27,638 bases of DNA, from contig CAZWJU010000005.1 of NCBI GenBank assembly GCA_964634365.1, forward strand, positions 1-27,638, in the 5' to 3' direction. The notes below the pieces were generated by a model. The model did not search any database. It had not been told where the DNA came from and worked only from the letters and a program-made list of their open reading frames with translations. Position numbers and translations under genes: made by a program. The first letter of the stretch is position 1. Each line of letters starts with the position of its first letter. Shown here one piece after another: positions 1 through 6,527 of the stretch. This DNA is from an uncultured Candidatus Saccharibacteria bacterium. GTDB taxonomy: Bacteria; Patescibacteriota; Minisyncoccia; Phycocordibacterales; UBA9973.

Positions 1-218
1 TAGAGGTCTGCAACTCGACCTCTTGAAGTTGGAATTGCTAGTAATCGCAGGTCAGACATACTGCGGTGAATACGTTCTCGAGTCTTGTACTCACCGCCCG
101 TCAAGTCAAGGGAGCTGGTGGTACCCGAAATCTCTCCATTGGAGGGCCTAAGGTAAAATCAGTGACAGGGACTAAGTCGTAACAAGGCACGGCTAGCGGA
201 AGCTGGTCGTGGAATAAT
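1..218 (+). rRNA. rrs: 16S rRNA, 3' terminal ~218 nt (partial, runs off window start)
   Basis: Matches the E. coli 16S 3' domain (gcaactcga..gtaatcg..ggtgaatacgtt..cttgtac.caccgcccgtca..aagtcgtaacaagg), followed by a helix-45-like stem cacggctagc-GGAA-gctggtcgtg. The tail after h45 reads GAAUAAUUCA rather than GAUCACCUCCUUA. Confidence 0.9.
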
Positions 219-392
219 TCAATTTGAAACCCCTTCATATTTATATGAAGTTAAGGTGTCGGTATTGTATGCCTCAATTGAGCATACAATGGTCTATAAG
301 CCAATGACCTAAAAGAGCTTTGACAGGAGGGAAAGCCACCCCATAGAACGAAACAAAAGAGTATAGAAACTATTAGATTTTTTACAGAAAAA

Positions 393-1052: not shown

Positions 1053-1397
1053 GGCTAAAAAACCCTTGAAAAATAAGGATATAATTGTTTTTAAAGCCCT
1101 GCGCAAAGCAGGGCTTTTTCTATTTTTTAGATTTAAAGATATTAACGGTATAAGTTAGTGAATATTTTGCAGTACTAATTTGAATAAGATTTAGTAATTC
1201 TTTTTTATCTTCTAAAAAATTTTTTTACGACACCAAAACACTCATCATTTGCAAGCTCGTACAGCACACATCTTTACAAGAAAATTTTTTTGTTTTACGG
1301 ATATAAAAATTGAGTTATCCACTACGACAAGCAAATTTTTTTTATGTACAATAGATACCACAAGTTAGAACTTTTTATTAATTTATTTTTATTGCGT

Positions 1398-3716
1398 ATG
1401 ACAAAAAAAATCACCCTCAGTAAACAGGATCTTGCACAGATCAAAGAGATTCGTAACCGCGAGTTTAATATGATACCTTTTGATTTGAATAAGATTATTG
1501 AAGCTATCAATAAAGCTTTTGTTTCAACTAATGAGGGTGAGCACAAAGACGCAGAATACGTTGCTAAAAAGGTCTTCAAAGAACTCTTGGCTATTAAAAA
1601 AGAAGCTAAAGACAAGAAATTTGCTCCTACAGTAGAGCTTATACAGGATTTGGTAGAGACAGAACTCATTCGTGAAAAATACGTTCATACAGCAAAAGCT
1701 TATATTCTATATAGAAACAAGCGTGCAGAACTCCGCCGAGAAGTCGGTCCAGTTCCGGAAAAGGTAAAGAAATTGGCTGAAGAGAGTAAGGCTTATTTCC
1801 GCAATCCTCTAGCAGAACTTGTGTACTACAGAACATACGCAAAGTGGATAGAGGGAGAGGGTCGTCGCGAGACTTGGATTGAGACTATCGATCGTTATAT
1901 GGATTTTATGCGTGAGAACTTGGGAGATAAACTAAAAAGCGCAGAATACGCAGAAGTTCGCGAAGCAATCCTAAAACAAGAAGCTATGCCTTCAATGCGC
2001 TTGATTCAATTCGCTGGCGCACCAGCTCGCAAGACAAACGTTTGCGCATACAACTGTTCATTTATTGCACCATCTACATTTCAAGATTTTGGAGAGATAG
2101 TTTACATATCAATGTGTGGAACAGGTGTAGGATATACCGTTGAATCAAAAAATATTCAAGCTCTTCCTCAGATTAAACTTCAGAGTGGCAAAAAACTTCC
2201 AACTTTTATAGTTCCAGACTCAAAAGAGGGTTGGGCAGATGCATTGGTACACGGTATGAAAACTTGGTTTGATGGCAACGACGTAGAATTTGATTTCTCT
2301 CTACTACGTCCAGCAGGTGCTCGTCTAAAGACTATGGGTGGCAAATCTTCAGGTCCTCAACCACTAATAGAACTTTTGCAATTTACTAGAGAGCGTATTT
2401 TACGTCGACAAGGTCGTCATCTTCGCAACATAGATGCACACGATATAATTTGTAAAATAGGAGAGTGTGTAGTTGCTGGAGGTGTACGCCGAAGTGCTCT
2501 TATATCTCTTTCAGATTTGGATGATGAAGACATACGTGATGCTAAAAAAGGTCAGTTCTATCTAACAGAAGGCCAGAGATCTCTTGCAAACAACTCAGCA
2601 GTTTACGAGAACAAGCCATCAGCTGTTGAATTTATGGATGAATGGGTAGCTTTGATGAAGTCAGGGTCTGGAGAGCGAGGTATTTTCAATCGCGGTTCAC
2701 TACACGCGACTCTTCCAGAACGCCGAATCAAACTTTGGCAGAAAGAATACAAAGGATATTTCTCACCGGACGGCCGAGTAGTTGGTCCTATCGGAACAAA
2801 TCCTTGTGGAGAAATTATTTTGCAGTCAAAGCAGTTCTGCAATCTTTCTGAGGTTGTAGCACGTGCAGACGATTCCGAAGAAACTTTGATGCGAAAAATT
2901 CGCGTAGCAACAATCCTTGGTACATATCAGTCATCACTTACAAAATTCGGCTATCTATCAAAAGAGTGGCAAGACAATTGTAGAAAGGAGTGTTTGCTTG
3001 GTGTTTCTATCACAGGACAATGGGATTGCGGTCTTGCACGCGATGGAAAAATGTTAGAGAAACTCAAGAAAGAATCTATCCGCATCAACAAGATTTTTGC
3101 AAAACGTTTCGGAGTAAATGAATCCACATGTATTACTTGTGTTAAACCATCCGGAACAGTTTCTCAAACAGTTGATTGTTCTAGTGGTATGCACCCTCGT
3201 CATGCTCCTTACTATATCCGTCGAGTTCGAATATCAGCAACAGATGCACTTTTCAAAATGCTGAAAGACCAAGGTGTACCTTACTTTCCAGAAGTAGGTC
3301 AGTCAGTAGATACAGCAACTACATATGTTCTAGAATTCCCAGTAGCTGCTCCAAAAGGCGCAATATGTAAAGATGATATTTCTGCAATAGCTCAACTTGA
3401 ACACTGGAAGACTGTGAAAGTAAATTACACAGAACACAATCCTTCAGTAACTGTATCAGTAGGAGATGATGAATGGATCGAAGTTGCACACTGGTTGTAT
3501 CAAAACTGGGAAATTGTAGGAGGCTTGTCATTCCTTCCTCGATCAAACCATGTTTACCAGCTTGCTCCATATGAAGAGATCACAAAAGAGCAATACGAGA
3601 AACTAAAGCCAACAGTAGCAAACATTGATTTCTCAAAGATTGTAACTTATGAGATTCAAGACGAGACTGAAGTAAAGAAAGAACTTGCGTGTGTATCTGG
3701 AGTTTGTGAAATCTAG
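1398..3716 (+). CDS. nrdJ: Class II adenosylcobalamin-dependent ribonucleotide reductase with N-terminal ATP-cone
   Basis: Catalytic-site motif TNPCGEI. ATP-cone-like N-terminus (MIPFDLNKIIEAINKAF...). C-terminal Cys pair (CVSGVCEI). 773 aa from the ATG at 1398; the ORF-track start at 1344 probably over-extends. Confidence 0.85.
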   Translation: MTKKITLSKQDLAQIKEIRNREFNMIPFDLNKIIEAINKAFVSTNEGEHKDAEYVAKKVFKELLAIKKEAKDKKFAPTVELIQDLVETELIREKYVHTAKAYILYRNKRAELRREVGPVPEKVKKLAEESKAYFRNPLAELVYYRTYAKWIEGEGRRETWIETIDRYMDFMRENLGDKLKSAEYAEVREAILKQEAMPSMRLIQFAGAPARKTNVCAYNCSFIAPSTFQDFGEIVYISMCGTGVGYTVESKNIQALPQIKLQSGKKLPTFIVPDSKEGWADALVHGMKTWFDGNDVEFDFSLLRPAGARLKTMGGKSSGPQPLIELLQFTRERILRRQGRHLRNIDAHDIICKIGECVVAGGVRRSALISLSDLDDEDIRDAKKGQFYLTEGQRSLANNSAVYENKPSAVEFMDEWVALMKSGSGERGIFNRGSLHATLPERRIKLWQKEYKGYFSPDGRVVGPIGTNPCGEIILQSKQFCNLSEVVARADDSEETLMRKIRVATILGTYQSSLTKFGYLSKEWQDNCRKECLLGVSITGQWDCGLARDGKMLEKLKKESIRINKIFAKRFGVNESTCITCVKPSGTVSQTVDCSSGMHPRHAPYYIRRVRISATDALFKMLKDQGVPYFPEVGQSVDTATTYVLEFPVAAPKGAICKDDISAIAQLEHWKTVKVNYTEHNPSVTVSVGDDEWIEVAHWLYQNWEIVGGLSFLPRSNHVYQLAPYEEITKEQYEKLKPTVANIDFSKIVTYEIQDETEVKKELACVSGVCEI

Positions 3717-3730
3717 ATTTAGATAAAAAG

Positions 3731-3757
3731 AAAAACCACTCAGTTGAGTGGTTTTTT
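3731..3757. terminator. Bidirectional intrinsic terminator (accactcagttgagtggt flanked by A/T runs)
   Basis: Perfect hairpin with A5 upstream and T6 downstream, between nrdJ (+) and a minus-strand ORF. Confidence 0.7.
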
Positions 3758-3762
3758 AGTAT

Positions 3763-4095
3763 CTACAGTATCCAGGCTGGTTCTCCTATACCTTTTTCTT
3801 TTGCGATTATGAGAATTTGTTCATGGTAATCATGCTCGCGATACCTTTCTTTTATAAAGTTGTATATTTTGGTCCAGGCTTCGCGCTTACCAATCGCAAT
3901 GTCTTTTATAATTTGTTTTGTTTCCCACACCCAGTCTTCTTGGTCAGATTCTTTTTCTCCGACTGGATAATCTTCCATTGCTTTATAGAAACGAACCCTG
4001 GTTTCTTCATTGCAATTTTCCATATATGCAATTAGTGCGTCCACGAATTCTTGCCATACAGCAGTTAATTTAGAAGTTTTACGCTCTGTAGTCAT
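3763..4095 (-). CDS. Hypothetical protein (110 aa)
   Basis: Clean ORF in a gene-sized gap. No recognisable motif. Confidence 0.5.
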   Translation of the reverse strand: MTTERKTSKLTAVWQEFVDALIAYMENCNEETRVRFYKAMEDYPVGEKESDQEDWVWETKQIIKDIAIGKREAWTKIYNFIKERYREHDYHEQILIIAKEKGIGEPAWIL

Positions 4096-4164
4096 ATTAA
4101 ATTTTTCTTTATATTGTCATGTAAAGTAGTTATTGTCAAATGTAATTAATTGATATATAATGCT

Positions 4165-5106
4165 TTCGTTGTACTAGACAGTCGCCCCGTGGGATAATTG
4201 AATATTATGTATTACGTATATGTTTTGAAAAGCCCCAAGCAGTTTTATATTGGATCAACGAATGACTTAAGAAGAAGGTTTATTGAGCATCAGACAAATA
4301 AGTCTATCGCTACAAAAAATCGTGGTCCATGGAAACTTGTTTATTATGAAGCATCTGAATCTAAGTCTGATGCTTTACACAGAGAAATTTATCTTAAAAC
4401 TGCTTGGGGTAAGCGATATATTAAACAACGTATAAAAAATAGTATTTAGCTATCCCACGGGGAGGAAAGTCCGAACACACATATGTGTAGAAATGAGTTC
4501 TTTTTGTTTAGGAAATCAGAGGAAAAACAATAGTTTTGGTGGTTTGGATATTGACACCTTTTATTGTTTCAAGCATGAGATGGAGGGTTTTAGGCTTCTT
4601 GGAAGCAGAAGACCTTGTACAGAACGCTCCGTTGTTGATTGTTTGAGACTTTGAAAATTCAGCTAGTTCTAGGTATTTTTACCGGGCAAAGCTGACTTGA
4701 AAAAAGCCCAGTACTCTGGTTTCCTTCCTTTTTCTTTTTGAAAAAGGATTCATTTCTACACATATAAAACGGTAGTGGGTAATACCCATCCATAGCAATA
4801 TGCGAGGTGCGAGCAGAAACGCCAATGTCGAAAGACTAGGGCTCCGCAAGGAGTTGTCGTATGGAAACATGCGGATGAAACGGCTAAATCCTTACTTGTG
4901 TGCAAGACCGTGCCTGGGCAGATTATAGGTTGAAGGGAAAAGGGAATAGTAGAATGCATTTTGCATTTAACTATAACCTCTAACCTATTCCCTATAACCT
5001 GCTCAGGAGAGTCGCTTGAGGGTAGTGGTAACACTACTCCTAGATAAATGATTGTCGTTCCGACCTTGCGTCGGGATACAGAATTCGGCTTATAGGTACA
5101 ACGCAA
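4165..5106 (+). ncRNA. rnpB: RNase P RNA (bacterial type A core), ~940 nt with two large insertions
   Basis: 5' agacagtcgcc and P4 5' strand ggaggaaagtccg. cggtagtgggtaatacccatcc (cf. E. coli GGGCAGGGUGCCAGGUAACGCCUGGG). ggtgcgagcagaaacgcc (cf. GUGCAACAGAGAGCAAACCGCC). ggttgaagggaaaaggg (cf. GGUAAGGGUGAAAGGGUG). 3' cctagataaatgattgtcg..acagaattcggcttatagg (cf. CCUAGAUGAAUGACUGUCC..ACAGAACCCGGCUUAUCGG). P1 pairing ttgtac(4167-4172)/gtacaa(5098-5103). Terminator immediately downstream. Confidence 0.85.
4207..4449 (+). CDS. Small GIY-YIG nuclease-superfamily protein (YhbQ/UPF0213-like, 80 aa), nested in the P3 loop of rnpB
   Basis: YYVYVLKS..QFYIGSTNDLRRRFIEHQ..RGPWKLVYYEASESKSDALHREIYLKT fits the GIY-YIG/YhbQ pattern. 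The ORF lies entirely inside the loop closed by the perfect 10-bp stem ccccgtggga(4185-4194)/tcccacgggg(4453-4462). Confidence 0.75.
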   Translation: MYYVYVLKSPKQFYIGSTNDLRRRFIEHQTNKSIATKNRGPWKLVYYEASESKSDALHREIYLKTAWGKRYIKQRIKNSI

Positions 5107-5112
5107 AATATG

Positions 5113-5142
5113 AAAAAGTCTCGCGAAAGCGAGACTTTTTCT
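5113..5142 (+). terminator. Intrinsic terminator after rnpB (agtctcgcgaaagcgagact + T5)
   Basis: Perfect 8-bp GC-containing stem with GAAA loop and T-run. Confidence 0.8.
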
Positions 5143-5156
5143 GTTATAATTTCTTT

Positions 5157-6527
5157 ATGTCAAAAAATAATTCTCCATGGATTCATCAGCTTGCTCGTAC
5201 AAGACCTATTTCGAAAGGCGAAATTCCAGAAAAGACCGATGTTGTTATTGTAGGAGGAGGTATAGCTGGTATATCAACAGCTTATGAAGTTTTGAAAAAT
5301 ACCAGTCTAAAGGTTGTTCTACTAGAAGCCACAAAAGTAGCGCATGGAGCTACTGGACACAACGCAGGTCAAGTAACTAGTTATTTTGAAAATCCATTTC
5401 AAGATTTTGTAAATAAATTTGGATTGGAACAGTCTGCCGATGCAGTAAGAGCTATAGAATACGATTCTAGGATGATATTGAGTGAAATCATGCGGGACGC
5501 TAACATGAAAACACCTCTTTCAGAGTTTGAAGGTTACGATGGCCTAAAAGACAAGGATTCCATCCTGATTTATCTGGAAGATCTCAGGTTGAAGTCTGAG
5601 GCAGGTTTGTCTATTCGTAAAATGTATATATCAGAAGATTGGTGTCATGGTATACACATACCTTCTCAATACAAAGCTTTTTATACAAAGATAGGGCACA
5701 GCGATGTCATGTCGTTGCTCGAGACTGTCGACACCGATTATGTAGCCGCCCTGCCTTTTTTGTCAGGTTGTATGAACAGCGCGCTTTTTACAGAGGAGTT
5801 AGGAGTTTTTATGTTAAATAATTTCAAAGACCGTTTTGTTTTAGTCGAGGAATCACCAGTTTCAAAGTGTGAACTTTATGAAAATTCTGTTCATATAAAA
5901 TGCAAAGATACTTCTATTGTTTCAGACAAGGTTATTTTGTGTACAAATGGATTTGAAAATATACAAATAGAAAATAAAAATGGGGCAGATATAGACACCA
6001 AATTTCACCACAGTGTTTCAGGGCTTATTGGCTATATGGCAGGCTTTACCGAGAATCCAGACAAGAAGCCTTCTGCTAGTATTTACACAAAATCCATAAG
6101 CATGAACGGTGGGCAATATTTTTACACAACCCGTAGACCCTATGAACTCAAAGACAACAAGGTAAATCTGATATCAATTGGAGGCCCAGAAGAGGTGATA
6201 GAAGACACAAGAAAATATGATAGAAATATGCACATTCCTTCTACTGCTATAAGTTCTATTTTTAGCTTTATTGAGAAAACTTATAATACGAAAAATAAAA
6301 ATGATACTTTTGAATTTATTTGGCATGGGCTTATGGGCTATACACCGAACGGTGTTAGGTTGATTGGTAAAGAGCCTTGCAATCCTGTACTTTTGTACAA
6401 CTTGGGTTGTAACGGAGTGGGGATACTACCTTCTATATACGGTGCTAGAAGAATTTCAAAAATACTTTCAAACGAAGAGCTCAAGCCTTCGATATTTGAC
6501 CCTAGGGATCAAACCTGCCCCATTTAA
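5157..6527 (+). CDS. FAD-dependent oxidoreductase (DAO/DadA-like)
   Basis: Rossmann dinucleotide-binding motif DVVIVGGGIAGISTAYEV near the N-terminus. The start is set at ATG 5157 because the ORF-track start (5052) overlaps the rnpB 3' end and its terminator. Confidence 0.7.
   Translation: MSKNNSPWIHQLARTRPISKGEIPEKTDVVIVGGGIAGISTAYEVLKNTSLKVVLLEATKVAHGATGHNAGQVTSYFENPFQDFVNKFGLEQSADAVRAIEYDSRMILSEIMRDANMKTPLSEFEGYDGLKDKDSILIYLEDLRLKSEAGLSIRKMYISEDWCHGIHIPSQYKAFYTKIGHSDVMSLLETVDTDYVAALPFLSGCMNSALFTEELGVFMLNNFKDRFVLVEESPVSKCELYENSVHIKCKDTSIVSDKVILCTNGFENIQIENKNGADIDTKFHHSVSGLIGYMAGFTENPDKKPSASIYTKSISMNGGQYFYTTRRPYELKDNKVNLISIGGPEEVIEDTRKYDRNMHIPSTAISSIFSFIEKTYNTKNKNDTFEFIWHGLMGYTPNGVRLIGKEPCNPVLLYNLGCNGVGILPSIYGARRISKILSNEELKPSIFDPRDQTCPI

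What the first reader, a model, noticed from the sequence alone, without database searches (positions are those of the whole stretch)
4481..4765. Second large ORF-less insertion in rnpB closed by a perfect 16-bp stem, right after the P4 5' strand
atatgtgtagaaatga (4481-4496) pairs perfectly with tcatttctacacatat (4750-4765) and encloses ~253 nt. Removing it joins ...aaagtccgaacac to aaaacggtagtgggtaatacccatcc, which restores E. coli-like spacing between P4 and the P5/P5.1 region. The insert has no credible ORF (longest ~24 codons) but has internal hairpins (e.g. cttcttggaagcagaag). It could be a decayed relic of a second homing-endonuclease insertion, a lineage-specific expansion helix, or an excised intervening sequence. 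Two independent ~255-nt loops, both closed by long perfect stems within one rnpB, suggest a common insertion/processing mechanism (for example RNase III-processed IVS).
Basis: seen in the sequence. Interest (0 to 1): 0.6.

Follow-up and report, generated by a model that had tools for sequence, protein, structure and literature searches.

The report
Species-specific helix-tip insertion in RNase P RNA
A 285-base non-coding, self-folding piece of DNA sits at the tip of a small native hairpin in the RNase P RNA gene of an uncultured Patescibacteria bacterium; it looks like the intron-less insertions already known from rRNA genes of this group, and the closest sequenced relative lacks it.

Summary
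Bases 4481-4496 and 4750-4765 are a perfect 16-bp inverted repeat enclosing 253 nt. In the rnpB sense it extends to a 25-bp helix whose only two DNA mismatches are G·U. Two corrections: the insert follows the P5 5' strand (J5/7, the P5.1 position), not P4, and it holds a 53-codon ATG ORF, which has no credible homologue.

The host is a 943-nt type-A-like rnpB (4166-5108) of a Paceibacteria bacterium. Eighteen related rnpB genes have a 4-8-bp hairpin at this exact site (21-27 nt between P5 and P7). Six have large, mutually unrelated expansions there. The closest relative found (RNR 94% identical) has 24 nt.

So this is a recent, species-specific insertion into the tip of a native P5.1-like hairpin. 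It is not an intron, a nuclease relic or a demonstrable multi-copy element. The closing helix keeps the 8-nt J5/7 intact, and the full-length fold predicts no pairs between insert and core. Whether it stays in the mature RNA or is trimmed by RNase III cannot be tested here.

It matches the ORF-less, intron-less insertions of CPR rRNA genes and the "large helix extensions" already noted in CPR RNase P RNAs. Interest is moderate.

The parts
4133..4161 (+). promoter-like site TTGTCA-17-TATAAT just upstream of rnpB
   Evidence: 11 of 12 consensus matches. This is a consensus match only.
4166..5108 (+). RNase P RNA gene (type-A-like), 943 nt including three helix-tip insertions
   Evidence: RF00010 match of 61.9 bits, E 3e-18, below gathering because of the inserts. 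The core is 83% identical to the L008 rnpB, which scores 113.6 bits.
4185..4462 (+). first insertion, in the P3 loop: 12-bp perfect stem (4185-4196 / 4451-4462) around the GIY-YIG ORF 4207-4449
   Evidence: PF01541, E 2.4e-14. The same arrangement is seen in L007, L077, L078 and L082-L085.
4464..4478 (+). P4 5' strand plus P5 5' strand (GGAAAGTCCGAACAC)
   Evidence: Found in the related rnpB genes examined, with G for A at one position in L031 and L054. Aligned to the Rfam consensus in relatives.
4479..4480 (+). first 2 nt of J5/7 (AC), before the hairpin
   Evidence: Relatives have the same 2-3-nt offset before their hairpin.
4481..4505 (+). 5' arm of the closing helix (16 perfect pairs, up to 25 with two G·U)
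   Evidence: Pair probabilities in the full-length fold are 0.94-1.0 for most of the 16 bp and about 0.45 for the extension.
4497..4749 (+). 253-nt region between the 16-bp arms; predicted branched fold, no family assignment
   Evidence: Interior 4506-4740 gives z -4.2 on the + strand. No Rfam family with E below about 0.9. No tandem repeats. No blastn match to any locus, phage or plasmid.
4493..4654 (+). 53-codon ATG ORF inside the insert, judged non-coding
   Evidence: No Pfam hit. Not called as a gene in the Logan contigs. Only weak hits to repeat proteins, from summed repeats.
4741..4765 (+). 3' arm of the closing helix; 4726-4748 can instead form a local hairpin flagged as terminator-like
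4766..4771 (+). last 6 nt of J5/7 (AAAACG)
   Evidence: Relatives have 4-6 nt here.
4772..4792 (+). start of P7 and the P8 hairpin (GTAGTGGGTAATACCCATCCA)
   Evidence: Conserved GTAGYGGGTAAYRCCCRTC in relatives.
4913..5007 (+). third helix-tip extension (P15/16 hairpin), a 46-nt-arm imperfect palindrome
   Evidence: I2. Homologous to the L007 extension (74% over 85-90 nt) and partly to that of L004. Absent in L008 and L010.
5078..5092 (+). P4 3' strand (ACAGAATTCGGCTTA)
5112..5141 (.). bidirectional terminator-like hairpin after rnpB
   Evidence: 13-bp stem followed by a T run on both strands.

Best explanation
The element is a recent, species-specific, non-coding insertion at the tip of a native P5.1-like hairpin. 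That hairpin lies between P5 and P7, in J5/7, of the type-A-like RNase P RNA gene of a Paceibacteria (CPR/Patescibacteria) bacterium. It belongs to the same class as the intron-less, ORF-less insertion sequences (IVS-type) that sit on stem-loop tips of CPR rRNA genes.

Shown here: it is transcription-sense structured. Its 16-25-bp closing helix starts 2 nt after P5 and ends 6 nt before P7, exactly where relatives have a 4-8-bp hairpin, so the 8-nt J5/7 and the P4/P5/P7 core are left as in relatives. In a fold of the whole 943-nt RNA, all 100 of its base pairs are internal, so it is predicted to be a thermodynamically insulated side domain.

Inferred: it is co-transcribed with rnpB from the upstream promoter and is tolerated as a passenger because it projects from a peripheral helix tip.

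Its fate is not shown. My split is about 50% retained as an expansion segment (giving a 943-nt RNase P RNA), about 40% trimmed within the closing helix by RNase III without religation (as for 23S rRNA IVS, the two pieces staying paired), and about 10% something else.

Its origin is unknown, because no homologue was found anywhere.
For: Position and closing helix.

Host gene: RF00010 in the window and above gathering in six relatives tested, each with a 9-12-nt extra hairpin right after P5.

Native hairpin: 18 related rnpB genes have 21-27 nt between P5 and P7 that fold as 2-3 nt + 4-8-bp stem + 4-6 nt. The stem sequences differ but pairing is kept, for example ACUA/UAGU, CCGA/UCGG, GCUUAU/AUAAGC, GUGUGC/GCACAU, CCGCC/GGCGG.

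Recency: the nearest relative L008 (RNR 94% identical) has 24 nt at this site and an rnpB core 83% identical to the window. All three large gaps in that alignment fall on helix tips. Relatives whose GIY-YIG is in the same 90% cluster have short hairpins (L083-L085).

Recurrence of the site: independent, unrelated expansions of 72, 103, 105 and 181 nt in L031, L007, L027 and L004. L004 and L010 have RNRs 96% identical, yet only L004 is expanded.

RNA-level structure: + strand -104.5 against - strand -79.3 kcal/mol. Interior z is -4.2 against -2.5. Both mismatches in the 25-bp helix are G·U in the rnpB sense.

Insulation: no insert-to-core pairs in the full-length MFE.

Literature: CPR RNase P RNAs have 'large extensions of helices' and fall below Rfam cut-offs (PMC8172020). 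CPR rRNA genes carry many insertions that are neither introns nor ORF-bearing, mostly at the tops or bases of stem-loops, and some are proposed to be RNase III-type IVS (PMC11270868).
Against: There is only one sequence of this insert (three identical copies), so no covariation test of its internal structure is possible. No transcript data exist, so co-transcription, retention and cleavage are all inferred. A weak terminator-like hairpin (4726-4748) lies inside the insert. Loss of the native hairpin's loop (often GNRA-type in relatives) could have a functional cost that I cannot assess. The strand asymmetry in folding energy is partly compositional, because the + strand is G+U rich.
Confidence: 0.7

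Rival explanations
1. It is an RNase III-processed intervening sequence. The 25-bp closing helix is cut, the 250-nt body is discarded, and RNase P RNA works as two (or, with the other inserts, up to four) non-covalently paired pieces.
For: It has the anatomy of a 23S rRNA IVS. It replaces a short native hairpin at a helix tip, has a long near-perfect basal helix of about two turns, is distributed sporadically among close relatives, and has lower G+C than the host RNA. IVS-type insertions are proposed for CPR rRNA (PMC11270868).
Against: There are no transcript data. The 9-bp extension to 25 bp competes with a local hairpin, with pair probability about 0.45. No RNase III gene lies in this window, and the rest of the genome was not seen. 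My literature searches found no report of a naturally fragmented bacterial RNase P RNA. In L004 the two paralogous inserts keep pairing in inner stems (3 of 3 stem substitutions go to G·U), which would be unnecessary if only the basal stem mattered.
Confidence: 0.35
2. It is a MITE-like, non-autonomous mobile DNA element with terminal inverted repeats that landed in rnpB. The stem is a by-product of its TIRs.
For: A 16-bp perfect terminal inverted repeat, and a TA at both borders compatible with a TA target duplication. G+C is genome-like. In relatives, other helix-tip inserts are clearly copied: the L004 P5.1 insert is 90% identical to its own P15 insert, and the L049 P15 and P18 inserts are paralogous. 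The P15 extension and the GIY-YIG insert have patchy distributions.
Against: There is no second copy in the 27.6-kb window or in 1.0 Mb of related loci, in phages or plasmids, or in viral contigs. The metagenome scan returned 19 loci, but similarity stops exactly at the 13-mer demanded, so these are chance matches. The 'TA duplication' lies inside the palindrome and is uninformative. The insertion coincides to the base with a hairpin tip, and its mismatches are G·U in the RNA sense. No transposase is nearby.
Confidence: 0.15
3. It is the decayed relic of a second homing-endonuclease (GIY-YIG) insertion.
For: A GIY-YIG ORF sits in P3 of the same gene. In L007 and L082 the P5.1 insert is closed by CCCCGTGAGATAA/TTATCTCACGGGG, the same module that flanks GIY-YIG in P3 of L077 and L078. 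In L083 and L085 that module sits in P15. ORF-less derivatives of the P3 element therefore do seem to exist in relatives.
Against: The window's insert has a different stem. It has no nucleotide similarity to the P3 insert and no GIY-YIG remnant by tblastn (best E about 0.8). Its ORFs have no Pfam hit.
Confidence: 0.05
4. It is a self-splicing (group I or II) intron or another known ribozyme or ncRNA nested in rnpB.
For: Patescibacteria are rich in group I introns in tRNA and rRNA genes (PMC13011429). The size of 285 nt is within the range of small group I introns.
Against: No intron or other credible family appears even at E up to 10 with relaxed filters. The borders are a long perfect helix at a hairpin tip rather than a P1/P10-type context.
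Confidence: 0.03
5. It is a gained functional domain, for example a protein-binding or regulatory platform or a replacement tertiary contact, under selection in this species.
For: The interior is significantly structured in the sense strand (z -4.2). The sequence is identical in contigs from three assemblies.
Against: It is confined to one species-level lineage and absent at 94% RNR identity. Inserts at the same site in other species are unrelated in sequence and size, which is the pattern expected of neutral passengers.
Confidence: 0.08

Closest known systems
Uncharacterised (non-intron, ORF-less) insertion sequences and IVS in rRNA genes of CPR bacteria (Tsurumaki et al. 2024, PMC11270868) and classical RNase III-processed 23S rRNA intervening sequences
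   Same: Same phylum. Inserted at the top of a stem-loop of an essential structural RNA. No intron signature and no conserved ORF. Closed by a long helix. Sporadic among close relatives. Sits alongside a GIY-YIG ORF insertion that is also not in an intron.
   Different: The host gene is rnpB, not 16S or 23S rRNA. At 285 nt it is longer than most ORF-less rRNA insertions (mostly under 200 bp). Processing by RNase III is unknown here.
[quoted passage not shown] 2021, PMC8172020)
   Same: CPR RNase P RNAs fall below Rfam cut-offs because of extended or missing helices. An extended P15 is illustrated there, and this window also has a P15/16 extension.
   Different: In the passages I read, that paper describes helix extensions in general and illustrates P15. 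The term searches I ran in it turned up no insert at the P5/P7 joint, no ORF inside rnpB and no paralogous inserts.
P5.1 of type B (Firmicutes) RNase P RNA
   Same: A hairpin between P5 and P7 in an RNA that lacks the P6/P16/P17 arrangement. The short hairpin of Paceibacteria relatives occupies this position.
   Different: The RNA matches the type A model best. The native hairpin is only 4-8 bp. No P15.1 partner was identified.
STRR repeats extending P12 of cyanobacterial RNase P RNA (Vioque 1997, cited in PMC2858038; content recalled from my own knowledge) and the 1149-nt Candida glabrata RNase P RNA (Kachouri et al. 2005, cited in PMC4330350)
   Same: Large lineage-specific insertions at peripheral helix tips of RNase P RNA. 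By my recollection of those papers, the insertions are retained in an active RNA.
   Different: There are no tandem repeats here. The helix differs (P5.1-like, not P12). The organism is bacterial and CPR.

Membership tests
Bacterial RNase P RNA, class A (RF00010), as host gene | Score at or above the Rfam gathering threshold (100 bits) | tested here: not met
   61.9 bits, E 3e-18, with the 5' half misaligned because of the inserts. The insert-free relatives tested (L008, L010, L013, L017, L046, L054) score 102-138 bits.
Bacterial RNase P RNA, class A (RF00010), as host gene | Conserved P4 strands (GGAAAGUCCG ... ACAGAAnnCGGCUUA) and the P7-P9 and P15 core in the right order | tested here: met
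   4464-4478 and 5078-5092. The core is 83% identical to the L008 rnpB.
RNase III-processed intervening sequence (IVS) | Replaces the tip of a short native hairpin in a structural RNA and is sporadic among close relatives | tested here: met
RNase III-processed intervening sequence (IVS) | Long double-stranded basal stem (about two helical turns) | tested here: met
   16 perfect pairs, and 25 with two G·U. The extension has a probability of about 0.45.
RNase III-processed intervening sequence (IVS) | Excised by RNase III without religation, leaving the host RNA fragmented | not testable with these tools
   Needs RNA-seq, a Northern blot or in-vitro cleavage.
RNase III-processed intervening sequence (IVS) | Host is 23S (or 16S) rRNA | tested here: not met
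   The host is rnpB.
Group I / group II intron | Match to the intron covariance models (conserved catalytic core) | tested here: not met
   No intron family at E up to 10 on 4050-5200 or on 4470-4776.
MITE / IS-derived element | Terminal inverted repeats | tested here: met
   16-bp perfect inverted repeat.
MITE / IS-derived element | Target-site duplication | tested here: inconclusive
   TA occurs at both borders but lies within the palindrome itself.
MITE / IS-derived element | Multiple dispersed copies in the genome or in related genomes | tested here: not met
   None in the window, in 1.0 Mb of related loci, or in phage, plasmid or viral collections. The metagenome hits are chance matches. 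The rest of this genome could not be searched.
Homing-endonuclease (GIY-YIG) insertion or relic | Recognisable nuclease ORF or its remnant | tested here: not met
   tblastn best E about 0.8, no Pfam hit, and no credible homologue of the 53-aa ORF.
P5.1 helix of type B RNase P RNA | Hairpin located between P5 and P7 | tested here: met
P5.1 helix of type B RNase P RNA | Host RNA is type B, with an L5.1-L15.1 tertiary contact | tested here: not met
   The best Rfam family is class A; overlapping lower-scoring matches to families of the same clan were left out. The tertiary contact is not testable.
STRR-type repeat expansion of rnpB (cyanobacteria) | Short tandem repeats making up the insert | tested here: not met
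   TRF finds none in 4100-5200.

The most novel reading that the evidence does not exclude
The insert is one member of a previously undescribed population of stem-closed, intron-less modules. These would move between helix tips (P3, P5.1, P8, P15, P18) within and between RNase P RNA genes of Paceibacteria, possibly helped by the resident GIY-YIG nuclease or by an RNA-level route. They would be removed, or tolerated, by a common mechanism, giving a bacterial RNase P RNA that is two-thirds passenger sequence or is assembled from several fragments. The supporting observations come from relatives. The L004 P5.1 insert is 90% identical to its own P15 insert, while a relative with 96% identical RNR has neither. 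The GIY-YIG stem module CCCGTGAGAT recurs at P5.1 or P15 in four genes and almost nowhere else in 1 Mb. The P15 extension has a patchy distribution.
Probability: 0.25. Interest if true: 0.7.

Novelty: new variant of a known kind. Interest (0 to 1): 0.42.

Why it matters
RNase P RNA is a small essential ribozyme that is normally very constrained in bacteria. Here about two-thirds of a 943-nt rnpB is insert sequence at three helix tips, and standard annotation misses the gene (61.9 bits against a 100-bit cut-off). Recognising that Paceibacteria have a P5.1-like hairpin that acts as a hot spot for large, fast-turnover insertions has two uses. It helps annotation of CPR genomes. It also offers a natural test of how much peripheral RNA the ribozyme tolerates, and of whether bacterial RNase P RNA can be fragmented the way IVS-bearing rRNA is. 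For this particular insert the biology is probably neutral passenger sequence.

Tried and rejected
1. Metagenome scan for the two 13-nt arms at 238-268 nt spacing. It returned 19 loci, 18 of them from one metagenome. These are arrays of a repeat unit of about 130 nt (L063 is a separate long palindrome). Similarity to the window ends exactly at the 13-mer demanded, and the flanking bases differ in all three families. I judged them chance or ascertainment matches. The window's own locus was not found, so the organism is not in that collection.

2. Viral-contig scans with the arm pair and with an interior 22-mer: nothing.

3. blastn ('distant' mode) against phages and plasmids: nothing.

4. blastn (word size 7) against all fetched loci: only self-hits.

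5. Rfam at E up to 10, on 1.15 kb and again on the insert alone: only noise.

6. Pfam scan of the three ORFs in the insert: nothing. tblastn with GIY-YIG proteins against the inserts: nothing.

7. phmmer of the 53-aa ORF against 1.84 billion representatives: 9 weak hits (best E 3e-7), all to repeat proteins of different families (EsV-1-7 Cys-rich repeats, DUF5122/PKD), with scores summed over 4-5 repeats. I rejected these as chance.

8. Looking for a diverged copy of the insert in the closest organisms through the RNR and GIY-YIG proteins. The contig of the 98%-RNR relative stops before rnpB. All members of the GIY-YIG 90% cluster that I could read have short hairpins or a different insert.

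9. Tandem repeats (STRR-like): none.

10. A split-gene idea (internal terminator plus internal promoter) was rejected because the promoter-like site (4651-4679) lies upstream of the terminator-like hairpin (4726-4748).

Full report
**Observation.** The sequence is as described. ATATGTGTAGAAATGA at 4481-4496 and its exact reverse complement at 4750-4765 enclose 253 nt. Read in the + sense without gaps, pairing continues as G·U, A-U, U·G and six more Watson-Crick pairs. This gives a 25-bp helix (4481-4505 with 4741-4765) whose only two DNA-level mismatches are G·U on the rnpB strand.

A perfect inverted repeat of 16 bp or more arose in 1 of 100 shuffles of the window. All other inverted repeats of that length in the window have loops of only 2-17 nt.

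The insert folds at -104.5 kcal/mol on the + strand (z -8.7) against -79.3 on the - strand. Without the closing helix the interior still gives z -4.2 (+) against -2.5 (-).

Two Logan contigs from other sequencing runs are 100% identical over 3143-4905, so the insert is real DNA.

Two details of the finding are wrong. The longest ORF is 53 codons (4493-4654). The insert follows the P5 5' strand rather than P4.

**Host and context.** The window comes from a Patescibacteria (Paceibacteria) genome. The ribonucleotide reductase at 1344-3716 has its best homologues in Paceibacteria, Nomurabacteria and Minisyncoccia MAGs. The neighbouring genes are ordinary housekeeping genes, with no transposase, integrase or reverse transcriptase.

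rnpB spans 4166-5108 (943 nt). It lies between a strong promoter-like site and a terminator-like hairpin. Rfam RF00010 scores only 61.9 bits, with a misaligned 5' half.

Alignment with the rnpB of the nearest genome found (L008, RNR 94% identical) gives 83% identity in the core. It also gives three large gaps, all at helix tips:
- P3 (4185-4462, carrying an 80-aa GIY-YIG ORF);
- the site of this finding;
- P15/16 (4913-5007).

**What relatives have at this site.** I recovered rnpB from about two dozen related loci, through synteny with the reductase and through the GIY-YIG protein.

In 18 distinct genes the segment between P5 (GRACAC) and P7 (GTAGYGG) is 21-27 nt. It folds as 2-3 nt, a 4-8-bp stem and 4-6 nt. 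The stem sequences differ while pairing is kept. Rfam alignments of six of these genes show the hairpin as a 9-12-nt insertion right after P5 relative to the class A consensus.

These RNAs therefore have a native P5.1-like hairpin in J5/7. CPR RNase P RNAs are reported often to lack P16/P17 (PMC8172020). In type B RNAs, P5.1 replaces P6/P16/P17 (PMC2858038).

Six genes have large expansions at exactly this hairpin: L031 72 nt, L007 103, L027 105, L004 181, L082 at least 62 (contig end) and the window 293. All are closed by long stems, and none resembles another in sequence.

The gains are recent. L004 and L010 have reductases 96% identical, yet only L004 is expanded. The window and L008 differ in the same way at 94% identity.

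**What it is not.**
- No intron or other Rfam family matches, even at E up to 10.
- No nuclease remnant is detectable.
- The 53-aa ORF was not called in the independent contigs. Its only hits are weak ones from summed repeats to unrelated repeat proteins.
- There are no tandem repeats.
- There is no second copy in the window, in 1.0 Mb of related loci, or in the phage, plasmid and viral collections.
- A metagenome scan for the two arms returned 19 loci, but similarity stops at the 13-mer demanded, so I treat them as chance matches.

**How it most likely works.** The closing helix begins 2 nt after P5 and ends 6 nt before P7. J5/7 therefore keeps the 8 nt of the class A consensus, and the hairpin base is re-created.

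In an MFE fold of the full 943-nt RNA, all 100 pairs of the insert are internal. There are no pairs between any of the three inserts and the core. The 16-bp stem has pair probabilities of 0.94-1.0 for all but its outermost pair.

I infer a co-transcribed, insulated passenger domain on a peripheral helix tip. Whether it stays or is cut out is not testable here. Retention would resemble the helix extensions described for CPR RNase P RNAs (PMC8172020) and, from my own knowledge, the cyanobacterial P12 repeats and the Candida glabrata RNA. Excision would be by RNase III, as for a 23S rRNA IVS. I put retention at about 0.5 and RNase III trimming at about 0.4.

The closest described class is the intron-less, ORF-less insertions at stem-loop tips of CPR rRNA genes, where GIY-YIG ORFs likewise sit outside introns (PMC11270868).

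**Wider pattern in relatives (not part of the finding).** Helix-tip inserts in this lineage behave as copied modules.
- The L004 P5.1 insert is 90% identical over 163 nt to its own P15 insert. All three substitutions in the stems keep pairing through G·U.
- The L049 P15 and P18 inserts are paralogous.
- L031 uses the same stem sequence in four helices.
- The stem module that flanks GIY-YIG in P3 (C[CA]CGTG[AG]GAT) recurs at P5.1 in L007 and L082 and at P15 in L083 and L085. It occurs almost nowhere else in 1.0 Mb.
- The window's P15/16 extension is homologous to that of L007 but absent from the closer relative L008.

This leaves open that the window's orphan insert arrived by the same, still unknown, copying process.

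**Verdict.** This is a real, recent, species-specific IVS-type insertion into a native P5.1-like hairpin of a CPR RNase P RNA gene. It is a new variant of a known kind, of moderate interest.

Noticed in passing
window 1-224; L008 1-610; L010 1-595: The 3' end of the 16S rRNA reads GGAAUAAUUCAAUU where the bacterial consensus has GGAUCACCUCCUUU, so the CCUCC anti-Shine-Dalgarno motif is absent in this organism and in two relatives.
   Followed up: no
window 4233-4247 / 4395-4409: There is a perfect 15-bp long-range inverted repeat (CCCCAAGCAGTTTTA / TAAAACTGCTTGGGG) inside the GIY-YIG ORF of the P3 insert. Near-identical pairs are visible in L007, L077, L078 and L083-L085, which suggests a conserved RNA helix within the coding region.
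   Followed up: partly
window 4207-4449 and loci L007, L052, L077-L085: An 80-aa GIY-YIG protein encoded in the P3 loop of rnpB, without any intron, is widespread. It has 343 homologues at E below 1e-10, and the best 120 listed are 67-89% identical and mostly from Patescibacteria. In every locus I read the gene sits inside rnpB P3, including a distant one (L052, RNR 58%).
   Followed up: partly
L007 9504-9596; L082 727-; L083 3399-3432; L085 828-860: The stem module that flanks GIY-YIG in P3 (CCCGTGAGAT ... ATCTCACGGG) occurs a second time in the same rnpB. It is at the P5.1 site in L007 and L082 and at P15 in L083 and L085, and almost nowhere else in 1.0 Mb of loci.
   Followed up: partly
L004 16062-16240 and 16391-16560: Two inserts in one rnpB (P5.1 and P15) are 90% identical over 163 nt. 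All three stem substitutions keep pairing through G·U. L010, with an RNR 96% identical, has neither insert.
   Followed up: partly
window 4913-5007: The P15/16 hairpin is extended by a 95-nt imperfect palindrome rich in ATAACCT/AGGTTAT. It is homologous to the extensions of L007 and partly of L004, but absent in the closer relatives L008 and L010, giving a patchy distribution.
   Followed up: partly
L031 and L049 rnpB; L015 rnpB: L031 uses the same stem sequence (CCAGCTCTAATTTT...AAAATTAGGGCTGG) in P3, P5.1, P15 and P18. L049 has paralogous inserts of about 120 nt in P15 and P18. L015 has an insert inside the P8 loop.
   Followed up: no
L058-L076 (metagenome Ga0210040; L063 from Ga0209149): One metagenome contains a highly repeated unit of about 130 nt arranged in direct and head-to-head arrays on at least 18 contigs. 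L063 carries a separate perfect palindrome of about 60 bp per arm. Both are unrelated to the window beyond a 13-mer.
   Followed up: partly
L008 and L010 16S rRNA, near model position 1158: The 16S genes of two relatives carry insertions of 34 and 103 nt at the same helix tip where the consensus has 2-3 nt.
   Followed up: no
window 4493-4654: The 53-aa ORF in the insert shows a C-x-SFG-x-YC-x-KH-x-EG-x-C pattern resembling one EsV-1-7 cysteine-rich repeat (PF19114 proteins, E 3e-7 only through summed repeats). I judged this coincidental.
   Followed up: yes
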